Origin: the human T2T-CHM13v2.0 reference genome, Homo sapiens
Direction: 5' to 3' (one strand)
Assembly: GCF_009914755.1 (NCBI RefSeq)
Contig: NC_060931.1
DNA: 64,000 nucleotides
The position numbers were made by a program, and so were the translations under genes. A model generated the notes under the pieces. The model saw nothing but the letters and a program-made list of their open reading frames with translations. It made no database searches and was not told the origin of the DNA. Positions 1 through 24,240 of this stretch are shown piece after piece; the stretch's first letter is position 1; each line of letters opens with the position of its first letter.

Positions 1-456
1 GATAATACTGAATGTCAATAAATACTGCTCACTTTCCCCAATAAATGTCATCATCAGAAGGCTGTTTGTTACTCTGTCGTTATCCAGAGATGTCTTCCTT
101 GTAGGAATCATGCTGCTCTCAAGTGCCTACATGGTGATTCTCTTGTCCAGGCATCAGAGGCGCTCCCAGCACCTTCACAGCACTAGCTTTTTATTAAGAA
201 CCTCCCCAGAGAAAAGGGCCACCAAAACCATCTTGCTGCTGGTGAGGTTCTTTCTGGTTATGTACTCATTGGACTTGTCTCATCCTCCACAATGTTGTTA
301 TGGGTATTCAGTCCTGTCATCTACAGTGTCCACAAGCTTATGGTCAATGCCTATGCCACTGTCAGTCCTATGGTGCTAATCAGATCTGATAAAAGAATCA
401 TCAGTATTCTGCCAAAGGTTCATTGGAAGTGCCATCCATTTTTAACAAGTTGGTGA
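1..456 (+). pseudogene. Vomeronasal type-1 receptor (V1R/VN1R family) pseudogene, 3' part; the 5' part lies outside the window
   Basis: Frame from nt 2 reads IILNVNKYCSLSP...RDVFLVGIMLLSSAYMVILLSRHQRRSQHLHSTS...SPEKRATKTILLLV (V1R TM5-IC3-TM6 motifs). After a frameshift near 275-280 it continues SSTMLLWVFSPVIYSVHKLMVNAYATVSPMVLIRSDKRII...W, with TGA at 454-456. Intronless. Confidence 0.9.
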
Positions 457-551
457 TATTTATTTTGTCGTCATCAATTAAATTATTCAAAAACAAAATT
501 TGCTATCTGATTTAAATAAAACATGTGGAATTGCACTTTTGTAATATCTAA

Positions 552-861
<310 letters not shown>

Positions 862-1006
862 TATCTCAATATTTTTAAAATTTCCTGGTGCTAAGAACTA
901 CATGGTGTCCTCAGTTTGGTGTCCTCAGTTCAGTTTCCCCCATGATTTAATATTCCCCAAGCATGTCTCTCACTTCTTAATTTTACCTTTATACAGGAAA
1001 CACTAA

Positions 1007-2320
<1,314 letters not shown>

Positions 2321-2439
2321 TATTAATATTTTATTAACTTTTTTTCTGTTTTCTGGTTTTATACAAAGGTGAGACATTTTGCTCTCACTGCTTTTATGAG
2401 CTTTTTTTTTATGTTGGTGTTATGAAGTTTGACCTTTTT

Positions 2440-3392
<953 letters not shown>

Positions 3393-4669
3393 ACTATTAC
3401 TTCACTTAAGATTTTTTTATCTCTTTTTGACACATTACACTTGTAAACTTTTAAAGGATTTAAAGATTTTCAGTTTTAGAAACTATTTAATCACCAATTC
3501 TTTAAATATTTTTTGTTTATATAGTCTAGTAAAGGAATTAGATGTTCATTTCTTCTCAATCCAATCTTCATATATGAATAATTTCATTCTCTATTAACTT
3601 GCCTTCTGTAAAATATGTAACTATATCAATTTTGCTTAGTATTCGATTTTATTGGCCTCTCGTCAGCTCAGTGTATTTTAATATGTAACCCATATGTTGT
3701 ACATTACACTGTTTCACCACATTTGTAATAGCTTACTTTCAATTTGCTTTTTTTTTTCAGATATGACTTGAGAAGCTTATCGTTTTTTTTTTCTTTGCCC
3801 ATTACTTTGGCTGTTTTTTCATTGTATTGACAAATATTTAAACATAAGCTAAATATCTGATGTTTATGTACCATATAATTTCTTTCGACCCTTCATCATG
3901 GTGGTTTATCTAATTGTGTGCAACATAATGCATAACTTAGTTTTCACATATGGAAGATATCATACTTGGATTGTCACCAGTCTGTATATTTATTCGCTGA
4001 TTCCATTTGCCTTGTTGGAAGTTGAACAACCCACATGAATCTGACGTTCTTGTGATTAGTCCTGTCTGAATAGAGCACGTGCTTCTTAGGTTGACTACTC
4101 CACTGGGATTATTCCCTTCATTTACTTCTGGTCCTGGGAATTTATATTTTTCTTCAACTATATTTAGCATAATATGGATTGTTTTAACTTCCTGACAATT
4201 TTAATTGTATTAAATGTTTAAAAAATATATATTATTTTCCTGAAAAGCATAAATAGCAACAGTTGCATACATTAGTAAAATGTGGCATAGTCTATGACAT
4301 AAAACATCATCTCGTGTGAAATCTCAAGTCTCTTGATGTAGAAGACCTCCTTCCCAATACATCATATTGGAGTAATTTGTGAAGTGTGATTACTTTTTAC
4401 TATTATGTATGTATTGTATACGTATTATGCACAAATTTCAGAAACACTCCAACGAATATATAGCCAGAATTACTGTTTTATATCATAGAAAGCTAATATG
4501 GGTTATTTACCTTAATTCAGATTTTTTTTCTACAATTACTATTATTTCTCACAGCACTTCCCTGATATCAAAAACGTAGTTGGATTTAGATTTTTTATTT
4601 AATCCAGAAGATGTTGAAAAAGGTTTTAAGTGGAGTTTACCCGTGGCTAGATAGTACTTGTTACCTTTA

Positions 4670-5220
4670 ACTTTTTTTTACATTTATTGAGGTATAATTG
4701 ACAAACTAAAAGTATATATATTTAGGATGTAGAATATGATGTTTTGAGACATGTTTATATATTTTTTAATTACCTCGGTTAAGCTAGTTAACATATTTAT
4801 CACTTTACATAGTTACTTTGTGTGTCTGTGTGTGAGTGGATATGAGTGGTAAGATTACTTGAGATTTGATTTTGAAAAAATTTTAAGTATACAGTATTAT
4901 TAACTATAGTCACCAGTCTGTATGTTGCATTCTCAGCATTTATTTATTTTATAGCTGTAAGTATGTATTTTTAGACTGATACCTTGTCATTTCCTCCCAC
5001 ATCCTAGCCTATAGTAATCATTATTCTTGTTTCTATGAGTTGGAGTTTTTAAAGATTTCACATAAATGTGAAATCATGCAGTACTTGTCTTTCTGTATCT
5101 GACTTATTTCACTTAACATAATGTCTTCATGGTTCATCAATGTTGTTGAAAAAGGCGGAATTTTCATCTTTATTAAAGATAAATTACATATATTAGTTTC
5201 TTCATATATTCATCTATGCT
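4670..5220 (-). mobile_element. Old L1 (L1MA/MB) 3' end
   Basis: tttattgaggtataattgacaa...ttatttcacttaacataatgtcttc antisense 3' UTR motifs. Confidence 0.7.
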
Positions 5221-6493
5221 AAGTAGTAACCTCTGTAATTTATCAAATTATCTTTTCCATATTATCATTCAAATACAATATTGTTTTGCATTTATTATTA
5301 TTAAAATTAATTTCCTGTCTTTAAAAAATTTTTATGAAATTTATGGGGCCAATTCAATCTGCCCTCTTGATAAAAGCCAAAGTTACATGTCAGTTTTACT
5401 AATTTGGATTTGATTGAGATTTTTATTGCCTCAAATAATAAGTATAAGCATTAAGGATAAAAATACAGTTATGTTCTTCATCTTACAACAAAGCAATCTT
5501 TGGGTTATTTATTGGACAAAAGACTCATTCTATATTATTATTTCTATTTTTATGTTACTTACCTAAACGTTTATTACACATAGAATGCCACAAAATAGGA
5601 ATAAATTGGTAGTCACAAATCATGAAAGTAAAATTAAGAAACAAGATATGCTTCCCAGAGAATGTCTGTAACAAAAATAAATGAAGTATGTTTTAGGTGA
5701 TGCATATTCTAATTCCCCTGATTTGATTATTACATATTATATGCTTGTATCAGACTATCACACGTATTACATAAAGATACACAACTATTATGTATCTGTA
5801 ACAATTAAAAATAAAAAAGAAAGTAGATATGAATATATGTATATATAATCATGTAACAAGTAAAGTATTAATTAAAAATATTTCCACAAAGAAAAGTTTA
5901 CAGCCTGATATCTTATGTGTCAAATTCAATGAACATTTAATAAATAATATCAATTGTTTAAAAAAACTTTCAAAAACTGAAAAGAAATTTATACTTTCTA
6001 ACTCACAACACTAGAGTTATTATACAACAAAATATATGACAAAAATGAAAAAATTCTCCAGATTGAAAAATAACAAAACTGTCTTTTTTTGCAGATGATA
6101 TAATTTTCTATATAAAAATATATAAGGGGTTCAATAAAATATCCCTAAAACTATAAAGTTAATTAATGTCACAAAATGAAAGATCAGAAAACAAAATTAA
6201 GTTGCAGTTATAGATGAAATAAATCAATGAAAATGAAATAAAGAAAAAAATCATTTATAATAGCAATAAACAGAAATATTAACAAAGTTTTAAAAAGAAG
6301 TACAAATGTATTACACTCGATTTCTTAATTCAGAAAAATCATAGAACTGAATACATTAACATACATTAAATAATCAATTACCATTTTTAAGATTATAATA
6401 TCTCACAGATCTACAGATTCAATAAAATCTCTTCAAATTTTTAACTAGTTCTAGTGGAAATTGACAAGTTCTTCCAAAAAACAAATATAGATA

Positions 6494-6765
6494 AGCTGGG
6501 CTTGGCGGCTTTGGGAGGCTGAGGTTGGAGGACTGCTTGAGGCCTGTAGTTGAAAAAGAGCCTGGGCAACATAGGAAGGTACTGTGTCTACAATGATAAA
6601 AAAATAAAATTAGCTGGATATGGTAGTGCATGCGTATAGTCCCACCTACTTGGGAGGCTGAGGTGGTGGAATTGCTTGAGCACAGGAGTTTGAGGTAACA
6701 GTGAGCTTTGATTGATCCACCTCACTCCAGCCTGAGTGGCAGAGTGAGACCCTGTCTCTAAAAAA
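6494..6765 (+). mobile_element. Alu (AluJ-type, degraded)
   Basis: ggaggactgcttgagg, gcttgagcacaggagtttgagg and gtgagaccctgtctc J-type features. Confidence 0.85.
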
Positions 6766-6901
6766 TGATTTTAAAAAACAATATAAATGTGCACAGAATA
6801 CCAAATACACAAAAGTCTTTAAAAACAATTTATACTTTTTGATATAAATTCTTATTATCAAAGATAGATTCACATAATTAATAGAATATATTTGAAGATC
6901 C

Positions 6902-7190
6902 AGCTGGGCGCGGTGGCTCATGTCTGAAATCCCAGCACTCTCGGAGGCCGAGGCAGGTGGATCACTGGGGTCAGGAGTTCAAGACCAGCCTGGCCAACAT
7001 AGTGAAATGCCATCTCTACTACAAATACAAAAAAATTAGCCAGGTGTGGTGGCATATGCTTGTAATCCCAGCTACTCGGAAGGCTGAGGCAGGAGAATCG
7101 CTAGAACCCGGGAGTCAGAGGTTGCAGTGAACCGCGATTGCACCATTGCACTCCAGCCTGGGCAACAGAGCGACCGTATCAAAAAAAAAA
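6902..7190 (+). mobile_element. Alu (AluS)
   Basis: Full sense dimer with A tail. Confidence 0.95.
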
Positions 7191-8125
7191 TGACTATCTC
7201 AAAAAAAATCCATTAAAAAACACATTGATTTATGGCAAATTAATATTCACAATAGTTCCAAAAAATTTAAATGTGGAAGAAACATCTTTTCTGGGAATTT
7301 TTCTAAGAACATTGGCTATAAACATTTAAAATAAAAAGTTAGACCCCTATCTCAAATCAAACATACAGAAGTACTTAATGTAAGCTGTAAGGCTAAATGT
7401 AAGAGCTAAAATGACAAATTTCTCACAAGAAACATAGAAGTAAATTTTTATAATCTTGTATTAATTTCTTTTGTTTGTTTTTTACATTTAGGTTTGTTTT
7501 ATTTAATGTTAATTCCATACTGTGTTTCAGTAAGAATGATACAGATTCTGTGTCTGTGGCTCCAGTCAGATATCCAGTAGTACAAATTAGCTTCCAGTTA
7601 CATATACTGAACAAAAGAGATTGAGCTAGTAGAGGGGAGGAGTGAAGTAAAAGTAGGCAAGAATGAGCAGCCACGATTGTTGAACTGTTACCAGCACCAT
7701 GCTTTCTAGTAATATTTCAGCAGAGTTTGAAACACTTTTTACAGCAAAACCATTACAACTCCTCCCTCCGCAAACAACGTTTAACCATCTCAAGCTAACA
7801 CCCAATTACTTTGAAACATTTGGTATAAAATACGGTTCAAACAATTAGAAAAACTGAAAAATGATACCACTTAATGCCTCTATAGTGTGATTAACATCTC
7901 CCTTAGATGCTTGCATCACCTAGAAGTCTAATGGCTTTCAAACGTAATTTCCATTTCTAATGGTAATCTTGCCACATCTGGCACGGAGACAATACAGTAA
8001 TGCTGAAAAAGCCTCTGCGGTCCTGTTAGTGTCTTAAAGAACCTAAAAGCTGGGACCAGTAAAATCCACAGAAATTCACTTCTTGACTTTAAGAACTTTT
8101 GAAAACTGTTAAAAAACAAACAAAC

Positions 8126-8128
<3 letters not shown>

Positions 8129-8172
<44 letters not shown>
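8129..8172. repeat. (CA)n microsatellite inside the YWHAE retrocopy 3' UTR
   Basis: Direct reading. Confidence 0.95.
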
Positions 8173-8175
<3 letters not shown>

Positions 8176-8527
8176 TCCCACAAAAAACAACAACAGGGCA
8201 GGAACCTAAATTCTGAGGCCAAATGTAAAAGTCAGATTTGGTGGTTCTTAGTGACAATGGGGACTTTCCAAGGGGTGGGTGGGATGGGGAAGAGTGGGGG
8301 GGTCAGGGATGGTTTCTCTTGTTGGCTTTTATGTCTCACTGATTTTCATCTTCCACGTCCTGCAGCGCTTCTTTATTCTGTTCTTCACCATCACCCTGCA
8401 TGCCTGAAGTCCATAGTGTCATTATAGCTTCCTTCACTCAGCGTATCCAGTTCTGCAATTGCATCATCAAAAGCTGCTTTTGCCAACCTGCAGGCATGGT
8501 CAGGGGACTTAAGAATTTCATAGTAGA

Positions 8528-8900
<373 letters not shown>

Positions 8901-9381
8901 TCACTAGCAGCTTTATAACCCACTAGGCTGTTCTCCACAGCCTCCTTCCTGTCATTTCCTGTGGCAAATTCTGCCAGATACCTGTGGTAGTCCCCTTTCA
9001 TTTTATAATAGAAAACCTTGGACTCACCAGTGTTAGCTGCTGGAATGAGGTTTTGTCCAGTACATACAGAAAGTGACAACAGATTAAATTTAGCTCAGTC
9101 TCAACCATTTGCTGATATTCCCAAATCATTTTTAGCTTGTCTTCTCCCTTGTTTTCTTCTTTCTGTTCAATGCTGATTATTCTCCAGAAGGCTCTTCTAG
9201 CTTCAATCACATTGTTATATGAAACAGATAGGAGGTTTCTTTCTTCAACTGTCAGCTCCACATCCATCCCTGCTACTTTCTTCATTGACTACACTATTTC
9301 TTGGAAGATACTGCGGGTTCGCTTCCAAAGCACGTTGTATTGCTCAGCCTGCTGGCCTGCTTTGCCTGGTAGCAGATCCTC

Positions 9382-9383
<2 letters not shown>

Positions 9384-9421
<38 letters not shown>

Positions 9422-9688
9422 GAGACGGTCTCGCTCTGTCGCCCAGGCTGGAGTGCATGGCGCCGGCTCACTGCAAGCCCTGCCTCCCAGGTACACGCCA
9501 TTCTCCTGCCTCAGCCTCCCGAGCAGCTGGGACTACAGGCACCCGCCACCGCTCCCCGCTAATTTTTTGTATTTTTAGTAGAGACGGGGTTTCACCGTGT
9601 TAGCCAGGATGGTCTCCTGACCTCGTGATCCGCCCGTTTTGGCCTCCCAAAGTGGTGGGATTGCAGGCATGAGCCACCGCGCCCAGCC
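9384..9688 (-). mobile_element. AluY inserted just after the YWHAE start codon
   Basis: AluY diagnostics and long pure T run; TSD a(g/c)cagatcctct at 9371-9382 and 9689-9700. Confidence 0.95.
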
Positions 9689-10826
9689 ACCAGATCCTCT
9701 TGATCACCCATAGTGGCAGAGGCTCCCACAGGGTCTGTGCGACGGACGGAAGCAGATAGTGTCTCTGACTCTCTCAGCCTCTGGTTCCATGTCCGGGCAG
9801 CAAAAATGGTGGCATCTCAATCTGGGACTTCCACCTGCGCACGCGGACAACTGCTCAGCTCTATGGCAACCGCTCCCTGGCAACTAAGGATTTCTTAAAT
9901 AATACCACAAAAAAGCATAATCAAGAAGAAACTGATAAACTTCATCAAATTGAGAAACATTTTTTTCAAACACCAAGAAGAATATATAATCTAAGCTGCA
10001 TAATGAGAGAAAATATTTCAAATTATATATCTTCTTAGGCTCTAGTATCCGGAATATAAACAAAACCAAAACAAAACTCTTATATGTCAAATAAAAGGAC
10101 AAATTACCAATTAAAAATGGTCAAGGGGCTTGAATATATGTTTTACCAAAGAAGATAGGCAAATTGCTAATATGAACATAAAAATATGCTCAATATAATT
10201 TCCTACTAGGAAAATAAAAATCAAATGACAATGAGATAACAATGAACACACTATATCGGCTATGACAAAGAGACAATAACAAGTGTCAGCAAATCTGGAA
10301 AGTATGGAATTTCTATGCATTGCAGCTGGAAAGGTAAAATAATGTAGTCATTTTGTAAAACAATTTGGCAGTTCTTCAAAATTTTAAACACAGAATTGCC
10401 ACATGGCCCAGAAATTTTTCTCCACATATGTATGCAAAGGAAATGAAAATCTAAGTCACACAAAGACTTGCATGTGAATGTTCACAGCAGCAATGTTTAT
10501 AAGAGCCAAAGGGGAATACCATCCAAATGTCCACCAGCTAGTGAAAAAATATGTGTCATATTTATGCAATAAAATCCTCAGCATTCAAAGGGAATTAAGC
10601 AATAATCCATGCTACATTGGAAATAAACCTCAAAAATAGTAAACTAAGTGAAACAAACTAGGTTTCAAAAAGATTATGTAATGTATAATTCCATATATAA
10701 AAAGAGTCCATAAAAAGCTCATTGATAGAAAATAAATTAATAGATGTCTAAGGCCTGGGTGATGGTGGAGAGTGAATGAAAACAAGATAGATTTTACTCT
10801 GAGATGATGAACATATTTTAAAGTTA

Positions 10827-11195
<369 letters not shown>

Positions 11196-12058
11196 TTACA
11201 ATGTCATTGTATTATATAAATTATATCCCATTAAAGCCTATCAAAAATAAACATGCCAAAAGTATTAAAATAGTTTCTGACTTTAAGAAATCCAAGTAAC
11301 AGACTTTTAACACCAAAGTTATTTCTGCTGATTTAATAAATATTAAAGAAAGAAGAAGATACTTTAAATATCACAAAAGGACACAAGTGCAACCAAAAAC
11401 ATTATAGAGGTTACGTAAGCAAAAAGAAAACAGTTTGTAAGGAGTATTTATGAACAGGAACCATCTGGTTTTACTAGACTAGAAAAGTGAAGTCATTCAC
11501 AGAAGACTACTGTAACTCACAGATGGTTAGAAACAAGTTATGTCATCATAGAATTAAAACAATTCATTTTAAAAATTAAAAATTAATTAAATTTTTAAAT
11601 TAAAAAATCATTAAAATTAATTAATTAAAAATATTCAGAGATGCAATCTAATATAAAGTTGGTTGATGGCACCCGTCTCTACAGTTAGAGTAGCCTATTG
11701 CTAATGCAAAAGCTGCACATTCATCACTTCTTCAAAACCAATCTCAATACCCAAATCTGATACTAATCTCTAAATTTATTACTACAATTTATGAGAAGAT
11801 ATCTGCCTATTTTTTAAATTATGTAACATGGCTAATGTTCAGTGTTTGAAGGTTTTTATTAAAAATAACTTAAATTTTTTATTTACAACTCATTATGGAA
11901 ATTAAAAATGTAAACAAAGATATGGAAATTATACAAAAATTCATGAGTACCCATCACAAGGCTCCAGCCATTATTTTGTCTTTCATTTTCAATTATTAAC
12001 TCCATATTTTGGTAAAATGTTAAAGTAAATATAAGAATCTGTATTGTTAAATTTGTAG

Positions 12059-13880
<1,822 letters not shown>

Positions 13881-14044
13881 TATCTAATATTTTAAATAAT
13901 GTGCAAAAAAGGAAACAAAATCAGATTATTCAGTAACAACTGTAACAAAAATTATAGCACATCTGTACAACTTGACATCAAATAATTGTTACATTGCATG
14001 GTAGTTGTGAAAACATACATGTAGATAAAATATTTAAAAAAGAA

Positions 14045-15455
<1,411 letters not shown>

Positions 15456-15519
15456 TAATGAAAATGGGTTTAGAGGGAAAACACCAGAATTAACAGGGGA
15501 CTTTAAAAAAGCTAACTAA

Positions 15520-16119
<600 letters not shown>

Positions 16120-17809
16120 GCTAACTAATGAGCTCCCTTCCAAACCAACAGAATCGCGTTTTCTTACAGTGAGTGAGATCTGGAATACCAAATAATTTAT
16201 ATGCACATGAAAGCTTGAAAGGCAATGCTTAGCTAAGTGGCTCTCACCCTAAACTTCCATTTAAGAGCGTGTGGCCAGTTTGAAGAAATGCCATCCCCTG
16301 TGCCCTCGCCACTGCTTCTACCTATTGTTCTGGGTGGAATCGTTCATGTTGTTCTAATTAATTGCCCCATGTGATTCCAAGGTGAGGCCAGGGTAAAGCA
16401 CACAGGCTCCCAAATCCTTTCAGGAGAGTTGAGTTAAGCTTTTTCCCTGAAGGGAGATCACAGAGGCTGCTCTGCTTGCGTTTGGTAGGGAGCAGGTCAG
16501 TTTAGCCCATATTCCCATTGCTGTAACAGAAACCACTGGAGTCTGTGGCAAGGGAGAGTACCACAGGGCAGAAAAATGAGTAAGTCACAGTTTCATCTTT
16601 ATTTAGCAGGTCATTGTTTCTGAATTCTACAACAAAGGCCAGAAGGAGAGAACATTTTCTGCACTTTAAAGTCCTTCTGCCTGTGGGTGTGGTGGTACCA
16701 GGTAAAAAGTTTGTCCTGATGCCTTCAAGGACACATTCTCAAGATGAAGGTGAGATTTGTTCAGTTAATCTCTCCTGAGAAGGAATCAGAGAAAAGAGAA
16801 AAAATGGGTGATTCTCAGATAAGTGTCCCAGGTCAAAAAATGTGTCCACTTTTTCTTCTAGGATGTCATGTACCTAGAATTGCAATCATTTCCATTTCTA
16901 CTTCTGATGTTCCTGCCTAACAAGATTATTTGAACTACTTTTTTCCTTTTCTTCTCATGACAGTGAAAGGACCTCTTTTAAATAATTCTCCCCTCTATAC
17001 CAGAGCCTTATCTTCATTCTCTCCATCCAGGCTTCTTACATATCACAAATAATTCTTACCTTGAATTTATACTCTGAAATATTGACAGTATTCCCTGTGT
17101 TGACAGATCAGTCTGGGCAGGTGGGGATATAAAACATTCTTTTGGGGGATGGTGCTGGGTCCTCAGATATCAGTGAGTGAGAAAAGTCCACTGTTTATGT
17201 TCCATCTGGATGCTCCATCAGCTCTATGAAGAACATAACTTTTAAATGAACACTTAAAAAGGATGGAATTAATTGCCTAGGATAATTTGGAAGATAGGAA
17301 AAGGGATTAATTTTTACAAATGTGCCTTCTAGGATGCTAAAGAGAGAGCATTTAAATACACTATTAGAAATTACAAAACATGGGAAACATATATGGCTTG
17401 AACTTTACATAAAACTGATGTTTTTAATGATTAGATTCAGATTATGGTGTATGTTTTTTGGCCAGTAATCTTGCAGAAGTCATGTTGAATCCTCCCGTAT
17501 GTATCAGCACCTGATACCCATTTGTCCCATTAATTTTATTCACTTGGTTAAGGTGCTCTCTAAAGGATTCCTCCACCATAAAGTTACTTTTTCTTTGAAC
17601 TCTGTCATTAGCAGTTATCTTGGAGAGACTTTCTGATTAATGTGCATAAACAATCACATTTAATCTAGAAGTGTCCCTTTCTTATTAGTTTCTCTTTGTT
17701 TATATCTTGCTTCAGAAAATGAAGCTTGTCAGCATTGTTTACTGGTCTTATACACTGGGATAAAACCCAGGTTCTGTCACTTACTAGATGTTTTACAAAA
17801 TATTTTTCT

Positions 17810-17955
17810 TAGCTAGAATCATTGGCAACATTGATGAGTTGTTAGCAATGCAGAAACTCAAGTCTCATCCCAGGTCTCTTGAATTAGAATATGCATTTTA
17901 ACAAAATCTCCAGTTTATTGATGTACACATTAACAAATGAGCAGTACCTTCTAAC
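17810..17955. mobile_element. MER5-type (hAT-Charlie) DNA transposon fragment
   Basis: aatgcagaaactcaagtctcatcccagg...gaattagaatatgcattttaacaaaatctccag resembles the MER5 core. Confidence 0.6.
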
Positions 17956-18298
17956 TTAATGTGACTTCTCCATATGGGAACTATATACATCTTACTCTGT
18001 ATAATGTAAATATAGCACTCAAAATTGTATATGCTTGTGTTTATGCCATGAATTGTATGCTGCATCATTCAGAAAACTATAGTACCTACACTGGTTTTGT
18101 GGATCTTATTTCATTCTCTTTCCTCAGAATGAGGGAATACATTAGAGAATCATTCTGTATTAAACAGTATCTTATTGGATAATTCAAGTCTCTCGTGTAA
18201 AACAGAGCCAACTCTCTTAACTCTCAAACACCTAGAGTCAAATTAGGAATTCTGCCCACGGCCACTTGCTAAATATGTGTGTGTGTCTGTGTTTTTAG

Positions 18299-18845
<547 letters not shown>

Positions 18846-19245
18846 TAGGTCAGTACTTTTAAGGAAAACTTGAAGGTTTTTTGGAATAAAAGAAGTCTTC
18901 AAGATACGTTATCTTAACAGAAACCTTCCCCTTTCTTGAGCTAATCTGTATCCTTCACTCTAGATTAGTAGAAATCTAGAAATTCAGTGGCATAAAATAT
19001 TGTTGCCCAAATATTGAAATCCAATATTCATCACCAATTTTAAATTCAATAGTGTTGGATAGTAGAGCTGTGGACCCAGAAATGTAAAATATATTTTAAA
19101 TATTCTAAAGGTTCTGTCAGAAAACACTATTTTGAAATTAATTTTCTAGAATCTTTCATAATATTCTCTCCTCTCTACTGAACATAGTACTAGGTTGGTA
19201 ATTGGAGAATCCCAGCAAGTCATGTTACTTTTTCTAACAAAACCG

Positions 19246-19341
19246 GTCTTGCTGTCTCTAACCCTCATCAGATCTGCTGCCTTAAGCAAATAAAAGAGCC
19301 CTGGAATGTGAGGAGACGTGAGACAGTAGTCAAATACTAAG
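19246..19341 (+). pseudogene. KRAB-B exon, both splice sites mutated
   Basis: 96 nt, GLAVSNPHQICCLKQIKEPWNVRRRETVVKY*; acceptor reads aaaccg and donor reads ataggt. Confidence 0.88.
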
Positions 19342-19789
19342 ATAGGTAAGCATGAATGAAGCAGATAACACAGACCAGAGGTACAAAGGTCAAAAAGAAT
19401 GCCAGACCTTTAAATGTGATATGGGACACTGCTTCAATGGAAATGTTTCCTAAAAAGCCTTTTTCCCTCTTGCTCTCAAATAGGAGTATCTTCTGTCCCA
19501 TACCCTTAAATTCTCTAAGGACTCTACTTCCCATTCTGTGATTTTCCTTTGGGATTACCATGAGAGCCAGAGTCTCCTTTATGGCTTATAAGGTACTGCA
19601 TGATATGCCTGTTCTTCCATTGCTTTGGGGGGATACAAGAATATCTTTATTTTTAAGGAACTGCATATTAGATCATTTTTAAAGTTTTCTTTTTCCATCA
19701 TGTCTGAAACGTGTGAGAGCAGTGCTGATATTAAGATTTGTTTCAGGAATCTTAGAAACATCAATGACAAAAGTTGCTTGTTATTTCTC

Positions 19790-24240
<4,451 letters not shown>

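What the first reader, a model, noticed from the sequence alone, without database searches (positions are those of the whole stretch)
9300..9332. YWHAE retrocopy preserves a 33-nt cassette exon between exons 1 and 2, in an open frame
Seen: on the minus strand TGCTTTGGAAGCGAACCCGCAGTATCTTCCAAG sits between ...CAATACAACG and AAATAGTG..., with no TSD or repeat character. It is 33 nt and reads in frame ([11 protein letters not shown]). Recalled: this is the position of the first YWHAE exon junction, and a minor 14-3-3 epsilon variant with a small stop-containing extra exon is known. Inference: a minor isoform was retrotransposed. The in-frame CGA at 9321-9319 is one CpG deamination from TGA, so the copy may record an ancestral coding micro-exon in the N-terminal dimerisation helices that later became a poison exon.
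Basis: partly seen in the sequence, partly recalled or inferred. Interest (0 to 1): 0.8.

Follow-up and report, generated by a model that had tools for sequence, protein, structure and literature searches.

The report
Retrocopy fossil of a YWHAE transposon exon
An old, dead copy of the 14-3-3 epsilon gene on chromosome 7 preserves a 33-base alternative exon that comes from a transposon in the parent gene's first intron and already carried a stop codon, so it is a dated record of a minor splice form and not a lost coding exon.

Summary
On the minus strand, window 9332..9300 is a 33-nt insert placed exactly at the YWHAE exon 1|exon 2 junction of a processed pseudogene.

Genome-wide, the 33-mer has three matches at up to 3 mismatches: this copy, a second chr7 copy, and one site in YWHAE intron 1 on chr17. 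The chr17 site is on the gene's strand and is flanked by a T-run plus cAG on one side and GTATGC on the other. A minor isoform was therefore retrotransposed.

The "ancestral coding micro-exon" idea is not supported:
- The parent reads AAC TGA.
- The second chr7 copy also reads AAC TGA. It is a segmental duplicate of the same retrocopy, with 20 kb of collinear flanks and shared lesions.
- Only the window copy reads AAG CGA, a private two-base change.

The exon is the terminal ~40 nt of a sense-oriented pogo/Tigger-like DNA transposon. Of 20 family copies, 16 have TGA at that codon and none has CGA.

The 11-codon "open frame" is not informative, because a TAG follows four codons later. The capture is roughly 40-50 Myr old by a rough estimate. 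It is a sound but ordinary example of a known kind.

The parts
7479..9885 (-). Full extent of the YWHAE processed pseudogene (copy A), from the 5'UTR to the polyadenylation site. It includes two later Alu insertions, a (GT)n expansion and a 3'UTR deletion. The RefSeq model (8182..9382) covers only part of it.
   Evidence: blastn against parent exon 1 and exon 6 regions: starts at parent position 1446 of the exon-1 locus and ends at exon-6 piece position 1047. The ends are shown and the alignment.
9689..9885 (-). Exon 1, first part: 5'UTR and start codon (ATG at 9711-9709, reading M G D Q E D L).
   Evidence: 90% identity to the parent exon-1 region; sequence.
9383..9688 (-). Sense-oriented Alu with a long poly(A), inserted into exon 1 after the A/B duplication (absent from copy B). 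The target-site duplication AGAGGATCTG is at 9700-9691 and 9382-9373.
   Evidence: gap in P, B and C; Alu-type multi-hits.
9333..9382 (-). Exon 1, last part (codons ~5-22), ending ...CAATACAACG.
9300..9332 (-). The 33-nt cassette (YWHAE alternative exon between exons 1 and 2). It has 30 of 33 identity to C17:1258429-1258461 (-).
9319..9321 (-). CGA codon. The parent and copy B have TGA here. The preceding codon is AAG in A and AAC in the parent and B, so this is a private CT>GC dinucleotide change.
9289..9291 (-). TAG stop (parent GAG, Glu26), shared by copies A and B.
8816..9299 (-). Exons 2, 3 and most of exon 4, joined without introns.
   Evidence: 92-96% identity to parent exons.
8527..8815 (-). 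Antisense, 5'-truncated Alu with a degenerate T-rich tail, inserted into exon 4. The target-site duplication CTACTA(C/T)GAAATTCTT is at 8831-8816 and 8526-8511. It is absent from copy B.
7479..8526 (-). End of exon 4, exon 5 (with a 38-nt deletion shared with copy B) and exon 6 with the 3'UTR. In A only, there is a (GT)n expansion near 8130-8180 and a ~106-nt 3'UTR deletion.

Best explanation
The 33 nt are an alternative exon of YWHAE, lying between exons 1 and 2, that was spliced into an mRNA in the germline. That mRNA was then reverse-transcribed and inserted on chromosome 7 as a processed pseudogene.

The exon is the last ~40 nt of a sense-oriented pogo/Tigger-like DNA transposon in YWHAE intron 1. 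Its terminal repeat supplies the donor (AAG|GTATGC). A decayed CpG together with a T-run supplies the acceptor (TTTTTTTTTGCAG|).

The exon already carried an in-frame TGA when it was captured. The isoform was therefore the stop-containing form. It is expected to be an NMD target, or to be translated from Met23 in exon 2 to give an N-terminally truncated 14-3-3 epsilon.

After insertion the retrocopy acquired disabling lesions. It was then duplicated as part of a segment of at least 20 kb to the other side of the chr7 centromere. Only after that did the window copy change AAC TGA to AAG CGA and receive two Alus.

Shown here: the exon's origin, flanks, position and strand; one capture event followed by duplication; TGA in the parent, in the sister copy and in the transposon family.

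Inferred: the L1-mediated mechanism, germline expression, the NMD or reinitiation fate, and the age.
For: 1. Whole-genome pattern searches found the 33-mer only in copy A, copy B and C17:1258429-1258461 (-). Reversed controls gave 0 hits.
2. The parent site reads ...tatttttttttgcag|TGCTCTGGAACTGAACCCGCAGTATCTTCCAAG|gtatgcccgc.
3. The site lies between exon 1 (ends C17:1288771) and exon 2 (starts C17:1253779), on the same strand.
4. The retrocopy carries no intronic base on either side of the insert.
5. The parent with the cassette translates [37 protein letters not shown].
6. Copy B (C7:65641772-65641804) has the cassette with AACTGA.
7. A and B have collinear inverted flanks from window 20811..90 to C7:65632000..65651999, at 86-93% identity. 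They share the same 5' start and 3' end, the GAG>TAG change, the 38-nt exon-5 deletion and 3'UTR indels.
8. The cassette flank is a dispersed repeat: 3291 first-look candidates, of which 40 were scored at 77-82% identity. Most matches end 5-7 nt past the exon.
9. Twenty copies were aligned. All end near ...GGTATGCCTGTA and then diverge. 16 of 20 have TGA and 0 of 20 have CGA. 15 of 20 have GT at the donor. At the acceptor, 9 of 20 have AG and 8 of 20 have GG.
10. Upstream, on the same strand, Pfam finds HTH_Tnp_Tc5 at 25.2 bits (cut-off 22.2) and DDE_1 at 19.2 bits (cut-off 22).
11. Passages citing Han et al. 2010 describe a low-abundance 14-3-3 epsilon splice variant lacking the N-terminal helix.
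Against: - No transcript data were available, so present-day inclusion of this exact exon was not seen here. Its identity with the published 'sv' exon and with RefSeq variant 2 rests on recall.
- No outgroup genome could be examined. TGA at the time of capture therefore rests on parsimony (parent = B) and on the transposon family.
- The 20 family copies were taken from the 40 best hits to the YWHAE copy itself, which could bias them slightly toward its states.
- The poly(A) tail and target-site duplication of the retrocopy are degenerate. Only a 7-nt AAGAAAT match is seen.
- DDE_1 is below Pfam's cut-off.
- The name 'Tigger' is recalled. No repeat library was available.
Confidence: 0.9

Rival explanations
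1. The exon originally read CGA and encoded an 11-residue insert in the N-terminal dimerisation helix. Copy A preserves that state, and the parent gene later deaminated CGA to TGA and so became a poison exon.
For: CGA to TGA is a CpG transition, the fastest substitution class, so parallel changes in the parent and in copy B are conceivable. Copy A does read CGA, and the insert is 33 nt, which is in frame.
Against: - Parent and copy B both read AAC TGA. Copy A reads AAG CGA, so A needs an extra adjacent change under either scenario.
- The source transposon family reads TGA in 16 of 20 copies, CGA in 0 of 20 and CAA in 2 of 20. If a CpG had been ancestral, TG and CA products would be about equally common. 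CTGA 15 against CCAA 1 gives a one-sided binomial p = 2.6e-4.
- The family exon-equivalent is 32 nt in 18 of 20 copies. The in-frame length of 33 nt is therefore an accident of a 1-nt insertion.
Confidence: 0.03
2. The 33 nt entered the pseudogene at the DNA level after insertion, as filler DNA, by gene conversion, or as an independent transposon fragment, and not through splicing.
For: The sequence is transposon-derived, and small insertions do occur in pseudogenes.
Against: - The boundaries coincide to the base with the AG| and |GT of the intronic site and with the exon 1|2 junction.
- It matches the YWHAE intronic copy at 30-31 of 33 positions. No other family copy in the genome is within 3 mismatches.
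- The orientation is that of the gene.
Confidence: 0.01
3. Copies A and B are two independent retrotranspositions of the same minor isoform, which would imply that it was abundant.
For: Both carry the cassette.
Against: There are about 20 kb of collinear homologous flanks on both sides. The 5' start and 3' end are identical. They share a nonsense change, the 38-nt deletion and 3'UTR indels.
Confidence: 0.01
4. The captured transcript was a one-off splicing error at a cryptic transposon exon. It was not a stable or regulated isoform, and the resemblance to today's minor variant is only use of the same cryptic sites.
For: Family copies often carry the same GT (15 of 20) and AG (9 of 20), so the sites are generic to this transposon end. 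Sense Tigger elements are reported as a source of cryptic splice sites (PMC10901741, passages).
Against: The YWHAE copy has a strengthened T-run before the AG. A low-abundance variant lacking the N-terminus is reported in all tissues (passage in PMC5794190 citing Han 2010). One of the two independent junction-spanning YWHAE retrocopies found carries the exon.
Confidence: 0.05

Closest known systems
14-3-3 epsilon 'sv' splice variant (Han et al. 2010, BBRC 396:401, PMID 20417184); also RefSeq non-coding YWHAE variant 2 and the UniProt isoform lacking residues 1-22 (both recalled)
   Same: It is a minor YWHAE isoform that lacks the N-terminal dimerisation helix and is of low abundance in all tissues (citing passages). 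The cassette found here puts a TGA after codon 21+4, and the next in-frame ATG is Met23 at the start of exon 2. That would give exactly such a protein.
   Different: The paper itself is not held. That its extra exon is this 33-mer is my recollection of the abstract (a stop-containing 'exon 1-prime') and is not a checked fact. The transposon origin and the retrocopy record are not described in any passage I saw.
Processed pseudogenes as archives of transcript isoforms (Shemesh et al. 2006 PNAS; cited in Carelli et al. 2016, PMC4772013)
   Same: A retrocopy preserves an alternative exon and so dates the splice form. Carelli et al. state that retrocopies have served as archives of transcript isoforms (passage).
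   Different: Shemesh et al. is not held, so I cannot say whether this YWHAE case is in their lists. Here the archived exon is transposon-derived and stop-containing, and the record exists in two copies through a later segmental duplication.
Exonisation of sense-oriented Tigger DNA transposons (Ilik et al. 2024, Nature, PMC10901741)
   Same: It is a sense-strand, autonomous-type Tigger-like element in an intron that contributes splice sites. Such events are reported to be suppressed by SAFB in the soma and raised in the testis (passages).
   Different: YWHAE is not mentioned in the main text (0 occurrences). The events they stress are gene-trap-like terminal exons using the transposon's poly(A) site. 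Here a 33-nt internal cassette is made from the terminal repeat alone.
Poison (NMD-triggering) cassette exons
   Same: It is an in-frame stop in a short cassette, with five exon junctions downstream.
   Different: NMD sensitivity and regulation were not tested. Classic poison exons are ultraconserved, whereas this one is a young transposon-derived exon.

Membership tests
Processed pseudogene (mRNA retrocopy) | Parent exons joined exactly at splice junctions, with no introns | tested here: met
   Exons 1, cassette, 2, 3, 4, 5 and 6 are contiguous at the parent GT/AG boundaries.
Processed pseudogene (mRNA retrocopy) | Ends at the parent polyadenylation site with an A-tail, and has a target-site duplication | tested here: inconclusive
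   It ends 7 nt short of the chr2 copy's end and is followed by a degenerate A-rich stretch. Only a 7-nt AAGAAAT repeat flanks it. The chr2 copy has a clean A-tail and a 17-nt duplication.
Processed pseudogene (mRNA retrocopy) | Disabled coding sequence | tested here: met
   GAG>TAG, a 38-nt exon-5 deletion, small indels and two Alu insertions.
Cassette exon of the parent gene | Located in the intron between the two flanking exons, on the gene's strand, bounded by AG and GT | tested here: met
   C17:1258429-1258461 (-) is preceded by T9-GCAG and followed by GTATGC. It lies between exon 1 (C17:1288771) and exon 2 (C17:1253779).
Cassette exon of the parent gene | Seen in transcripts | not testable with these tools
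   No RNA data or chr17 annotation is held. The retrocopy itself is indirect evidence of one past transcript. The published variant is known only from citing passages.
Poison exon / NMD switch | In-frame premature stop upstream of later exon junctions | tested here: met
   TGA is the fifth codon that includes cassette bases, and exons 2-6 follow.
Poison exon / NMD switch | Isoform degraded by NMD, with regulated inclusion and conservation | not testable with these tools
   No expression data and no other primate genomes are held.
pogo/Tigger-type DNA transposon (source of the exon) | Dispersed multi-copy family with a defined terminus, followed by TA and unrelated flank | tested here: met
   3291 first-look candidates; 40 scored at 77-82% identity on many chromosomes. 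The 20 aligned copies end around ...GGTATGCCTGTA and then diverge.
pogo/Tigger-type DNA transposon (source of the exon) | Transposase remnants (Tc5-type HTH followed by a DDE domain) in the same element | tested here: inconclusive
   HTH_Tnp_Tc5 scores 25.2 bits, above the cut-off of 22.2. DDE_1 scores 19.2 bits, below the cut-off of 22. Both are on the gene's strand, in the expected order, upstream of the terminus and interrupted by Alus. The subfamily name was not determined because no repeat library is held.
Intrachromosomal segmental duplication (A and B) | Collinear homology extending well beyond the retrocopy | tested here: met
   Window 20811..90 against C7:65632000-65651999, in blocks of 86-93% identity in inverted orientation.

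The most novel reading that the evidence does not exclude
The transposon-derived exon is not splicing noise. It is a long-maintained switch of 14-3-3 epsilon that has been spliced in the germline for some 40-50 Myr. It would yield an NMD target or a monomeric protein starting at Met23. Inclusion would be raised in SAFB-low germ cells, which would explain why one of only two junction-spanning YWHAE retrocopy events captured it.
Probability: 0.12. Interest if true: 0.5.

Novelty: new member of a known kind. Interest (0 to 1): 0.3.

Why it matters
The finding gives a minimum age, before the chr7 duplication and roughly tens of millions of years, for a transposon-born, stop-containing exon in a dosage-sensitive hub gene. 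It also shows the exon carried its stop from the start. This argues against a lost coding micro-exon in the 14-3-3 dimer interface. It corrects the pseudogene's annotated extent and links two chr7 pseudogene copies to a single event. Beyond that, it is one more instance of two well-described phenomena: retrocopies archiving isoforms, and transposon exonisation.

Tried and rejected
- **Outgroup test (primates):** not possible. The held genome has no relatives (notes).
- **Literature, searches with no result:** 'YWHAE' + 'NR_024058' gave 0 papers. 'YWHAE' + 'poison exon' gave 0 papers.
- **Literature, papers not held:** Han et al. 2010 and Shemesh et al. 2006. Their content is known only from citing passages or recall, and supplements that might list this pseudogene could not be seen.
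- **Baertsch 2008 (PMC2584115)** passages did not bear on isoform archiving.
- **Pfam on whole three-frame translations of the transposon:** It was replaced by stop-free ORF pieces. Three of the five pieces gave nothing.
- **First whole-pseudogene DNA search:** swamped by Alu hits, so it was redone with Alu-free pieces.
- **Other loci considered and rejected as extra YWHAE retrocopies**. The chr4 and chr17:31.95 Mb hits are isolated exon-2 genomic copies. The chr9, chr10 and chrX hits are 65-70% identical and lack the cassette, so they are probably other 14-3-3 paralog copies.
- **The 38-nt exon-5 gap as alternative splicing:** rejected. It is not GT/AG bounded and lies between GAC(T/A)CTA microhomologies.
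- **My own recalled transposon consensus:** it suggested CpG at the codon, but the 20 aligned copies do not support that.

Full report
**Observation**

On the minus strand, window 9332..9300 reads TGCTTTGGAAGCGAACCCGCAGTATCTTCCAAG. It sits between ...GAGCAATACAACG and AAATAGTGTAGTC.... The local frame reads ...[17 protein letters not shown] and then a stop.

The surrounding sequence is a YWHAE processed pseudogene. Its true extent is window 9885..7479 (-), wider than the RefSeq model (8182..9382). It runs from the 5'UTR to the polyadenylation site. It is interrupted by the following:
- a sense Alu at 9688..9383;
- an antisense Alu at 8815..8527;
- a (GT)n expansion;
- a ~106-nt 3'UTR deletion.

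**Where the 33 nt come from**

A whole-genome pattern search with up to 3 mismatches found the 33-mer at only two places: the window itself and C17:1258429-1258461 (-). The reversed control gave no hits. Searching with the chr17 version added a third place, C7:65641772-65641804 (+).

The chr17 site reads ...ttattgcaatatttttttttgcag|TGCTCTGGAACTGAACCCGCAGTATCTTCCAAG|gtatgcccgc....

The parent exons were placed by Alu-free searches and by reading the splice sites:
- exon 1 ends at C17:1288771 (...GATACGACG|GTGAGT);
- exon 2 starts at C17:1253779 (...CCCATACAG|AAATGGTG).

The site is therefore in intron 1, on the gene's strand, 30,309 nt after exon 1 and 4,649 nt before exon 2. The retrocopy carries no intronic base on either side of the insert.

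**The stop codon**

With the cassette included, the parent translates [37 protein letters not shown].... The parent exon thus has TGA exactly where the window copy has CGA. The next in-frame ATG is Met23, the first full codon of exon 2.

**One capture, then a duplication**

The copy at C7:65.64 Mb (copy B) also has the cassette, and it reads AACTGA like the parent. A and B are not independent events:
- Window 20811..90 aligns collinearly, in inverted orientation, with C7:65632000-65651999 in blocks of 86-93% identity.
- Both copies start at the same parent base and end at the same 3'UTR base.
- Both share GAG>TAG four codons after the cassette, a 38-nt deletion inside exon 5, and 3'UTR indels. 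The exon-5 deletion is not GT/AG bounded and is flanked by microhomology.

The two Alus and the 3'UTR deletion are in A only.

A third retrocopy on chr2 (C2:138733592-138734593, -) is an independent event. It has its own 17-nt target duplication, and it joins exon 1 directly to exon 2. Other hits are isolated exon copies or distant 14-3-3 paralog copies. Of the two junction-spanning YWHAE retrocopy events that I found, one carries the cassette.

**Which state is ancestral**

The parent and B read AAC TGA, while A reads AAG CGA. That is two adjacent differences, private to A. By parsimony the captured mRNA had TGA.

I also tested the only escape route. This would be that CGA was ancestral and that both the parent and B deaminated independently.

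The cassette lies at the end of a dispersed repeat. A 291-nt query ending just past the exon gave 3291 first-look candidates. Forty of these were scored, at 77-82% identity on many chromosomes. Most alignments stopped 5-7 nt beyond the exon.

I fetched 86-nt ends of 20 of those 40 copies. I chose copies whose match reached query position 265 or beyond, and I dropped the rest because they ended earlier. I then aligned them.
- **Terminus:** they end around ...GGTATGCCTGTA and then diverge.
- **The codon:** 16 of 20 read TGA, 0 of 20 CGA, 2 of 20 CAA, and 2 of 20 something else.
- **CpG test:** a decayed CpG would give TG and CA about equally, but CTGA 15 against CCAA 1 gives p = 2.6e-4.
- **Donor:** GT is present in 15 of 20.
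- **Acceptor:** the dinucleotide is AG in 9 of 20 and GG in 8 of 20. This pattern is expected if an ancestral CpG decayed either way, so the YWHAE acceptor was probably made by CpG decay (inference).
- **Polypyrimidine tract:** the YWHAE copy has a pure T-run where the family has TTTGCTTTATT.
- **Length:** the exon-equivalent is 32 nt in 18 of 20, so the in-frame 33 nt is an accident of one inserted base.

One caveat applies. The 20 copies come from the best hits to the YWHAE copy itself, which could bias them slightly toward its states.

**Nature of the repeat**

Upstream of the cassette, on the gene's strand, stop-free pieces gave two Pfam matches. HTH_Tnp_Tc5 scored 25.2 bits against a cut-off of 22.2. 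DDE_1 scored 19.2 bits, below its cut-off of 22. They lie in that order and are interrupted by Alus. Three other pieces gave nothing.

Together with the defined terminus followed by TA, this supports a degraded autonomous pogo/Tigger-type element in sense orientation. The family name is recalled, since no repeat library was available.

**Age (rough)**

In 1604 non-CpG columns of the parent/A/B alignment:
- 53 changes are private to A;
- 45 are private to B;
- 28 separate A and B together from the parent.

Using the chr2 copy to polarise those 28, 17 fall on the A/B stem, 7 fall on the parent lineage, and 4 are unresolved.

That gives about 4-4.6% per lineage since capture and about 3% since the duplication. 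With a recalled neutral rate near 1e-9 per site per year, capture was about 40-50 Myr ago and duplication about 30 Myr ago. This is an inference and not a measurement.

**How it works**

The pseudogene itself does nothing that I can show. In the parent gene, including this exon ends the main reading frame after 26 codons. The transcript should then either be degraded by NMD or be translated from Met23, giving a protein without the first helix.

A low-abundance 14-3-3 epsilon variant lacking the N-terminal dimerisation helix is described in passages citing Han et al. 2010 (PMC5794190; PMC8455551; PMC12693811; PMC3422896). The paper itself is not held. That its extra exon is stop-containing and lies between exons 1 and 2 is my recollection only.

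**Comparison with what is known**

Retrocopies as archives of transcript isoforms are an established idea (passage in PMC4772013 citing Shemesh 2006 and others). Shemesh 2006 itself was not readable.

Sense Tigger elements are reported as a source of cryptic splice sites that SAFB proteins suppress in the soma and that rise in the testis (PMC10901741 passages). YWHAE is not mentioned in that paper's main text.

Searches for YWHAE with 'NR_024058' or with 'poison exon' found no paper. I therefore saw no printed description of this retrocopy record or of the exon's transposon origin. The two key papers and any supplements could not be checked.

**Verdict**

The 'ancestral coding micro-exon' reading is not supported, at about 3%.

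This is a clean, datable example of two known phenomena and not a new kind of thing.

Noticed in passing
window 90..20811: At least 20 kb of the window, including the pseudogene, is an inverted segmental duplicate of C7:65632000-65651999 at 86-93% identity. Alu insertions differ between the two copies.
   Followed up: partly
window 7479..9885 versus the RefSeq model 8182..9382: The annotated pseudogene LOC100130210 is truncated at both ends. The 5'UTR and start codon lie beyond the Alu (9689..9885), and about 700 nt of 3'UTR lie below 8182.
   Followed up: yes
window 8130..8180: A (GT)n microsatellite has grown where the parent 3'UTR has a T-run. Copy B has a (TTTG)n there instead.
   Followed up: no
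G000 C17: 16.76, 18.36-18.40, 20.44-20.66, 28.35, 37.19-37.42, 38.84-39.03, 63.12 Mb: About twenty copies of YWHAE exon 3 (109 nt, 83-93% identity), some with exon 4 at the parental spacing, lie in chr17 low-copy repeats. They often occur as inverted pairs about 630 bp apart. These are genomic, intron-containing fragments and not retrocopies.
   Followed up: partly
L078 / C2:138733592-138734593 (-): An independent, younger YWHAE retrocopy without the cassette. It is 5'-truncated, has a clean A-tail and a 17-nt target duplication, and seems to be inserted in L1-like sequence.
   Followed up: partly
L077 5430..8050 (C17:1258429-1261047): The transposon that supplies the exon is in sense orientation in YWHAE intron 1 and has itself been invaded by several Alus.
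   Followed up: partly
window 9319..9323: The private change in copy A is a tandem dinucleotide substitution (CT>GC) and not two separated hits.
   Followed up: no
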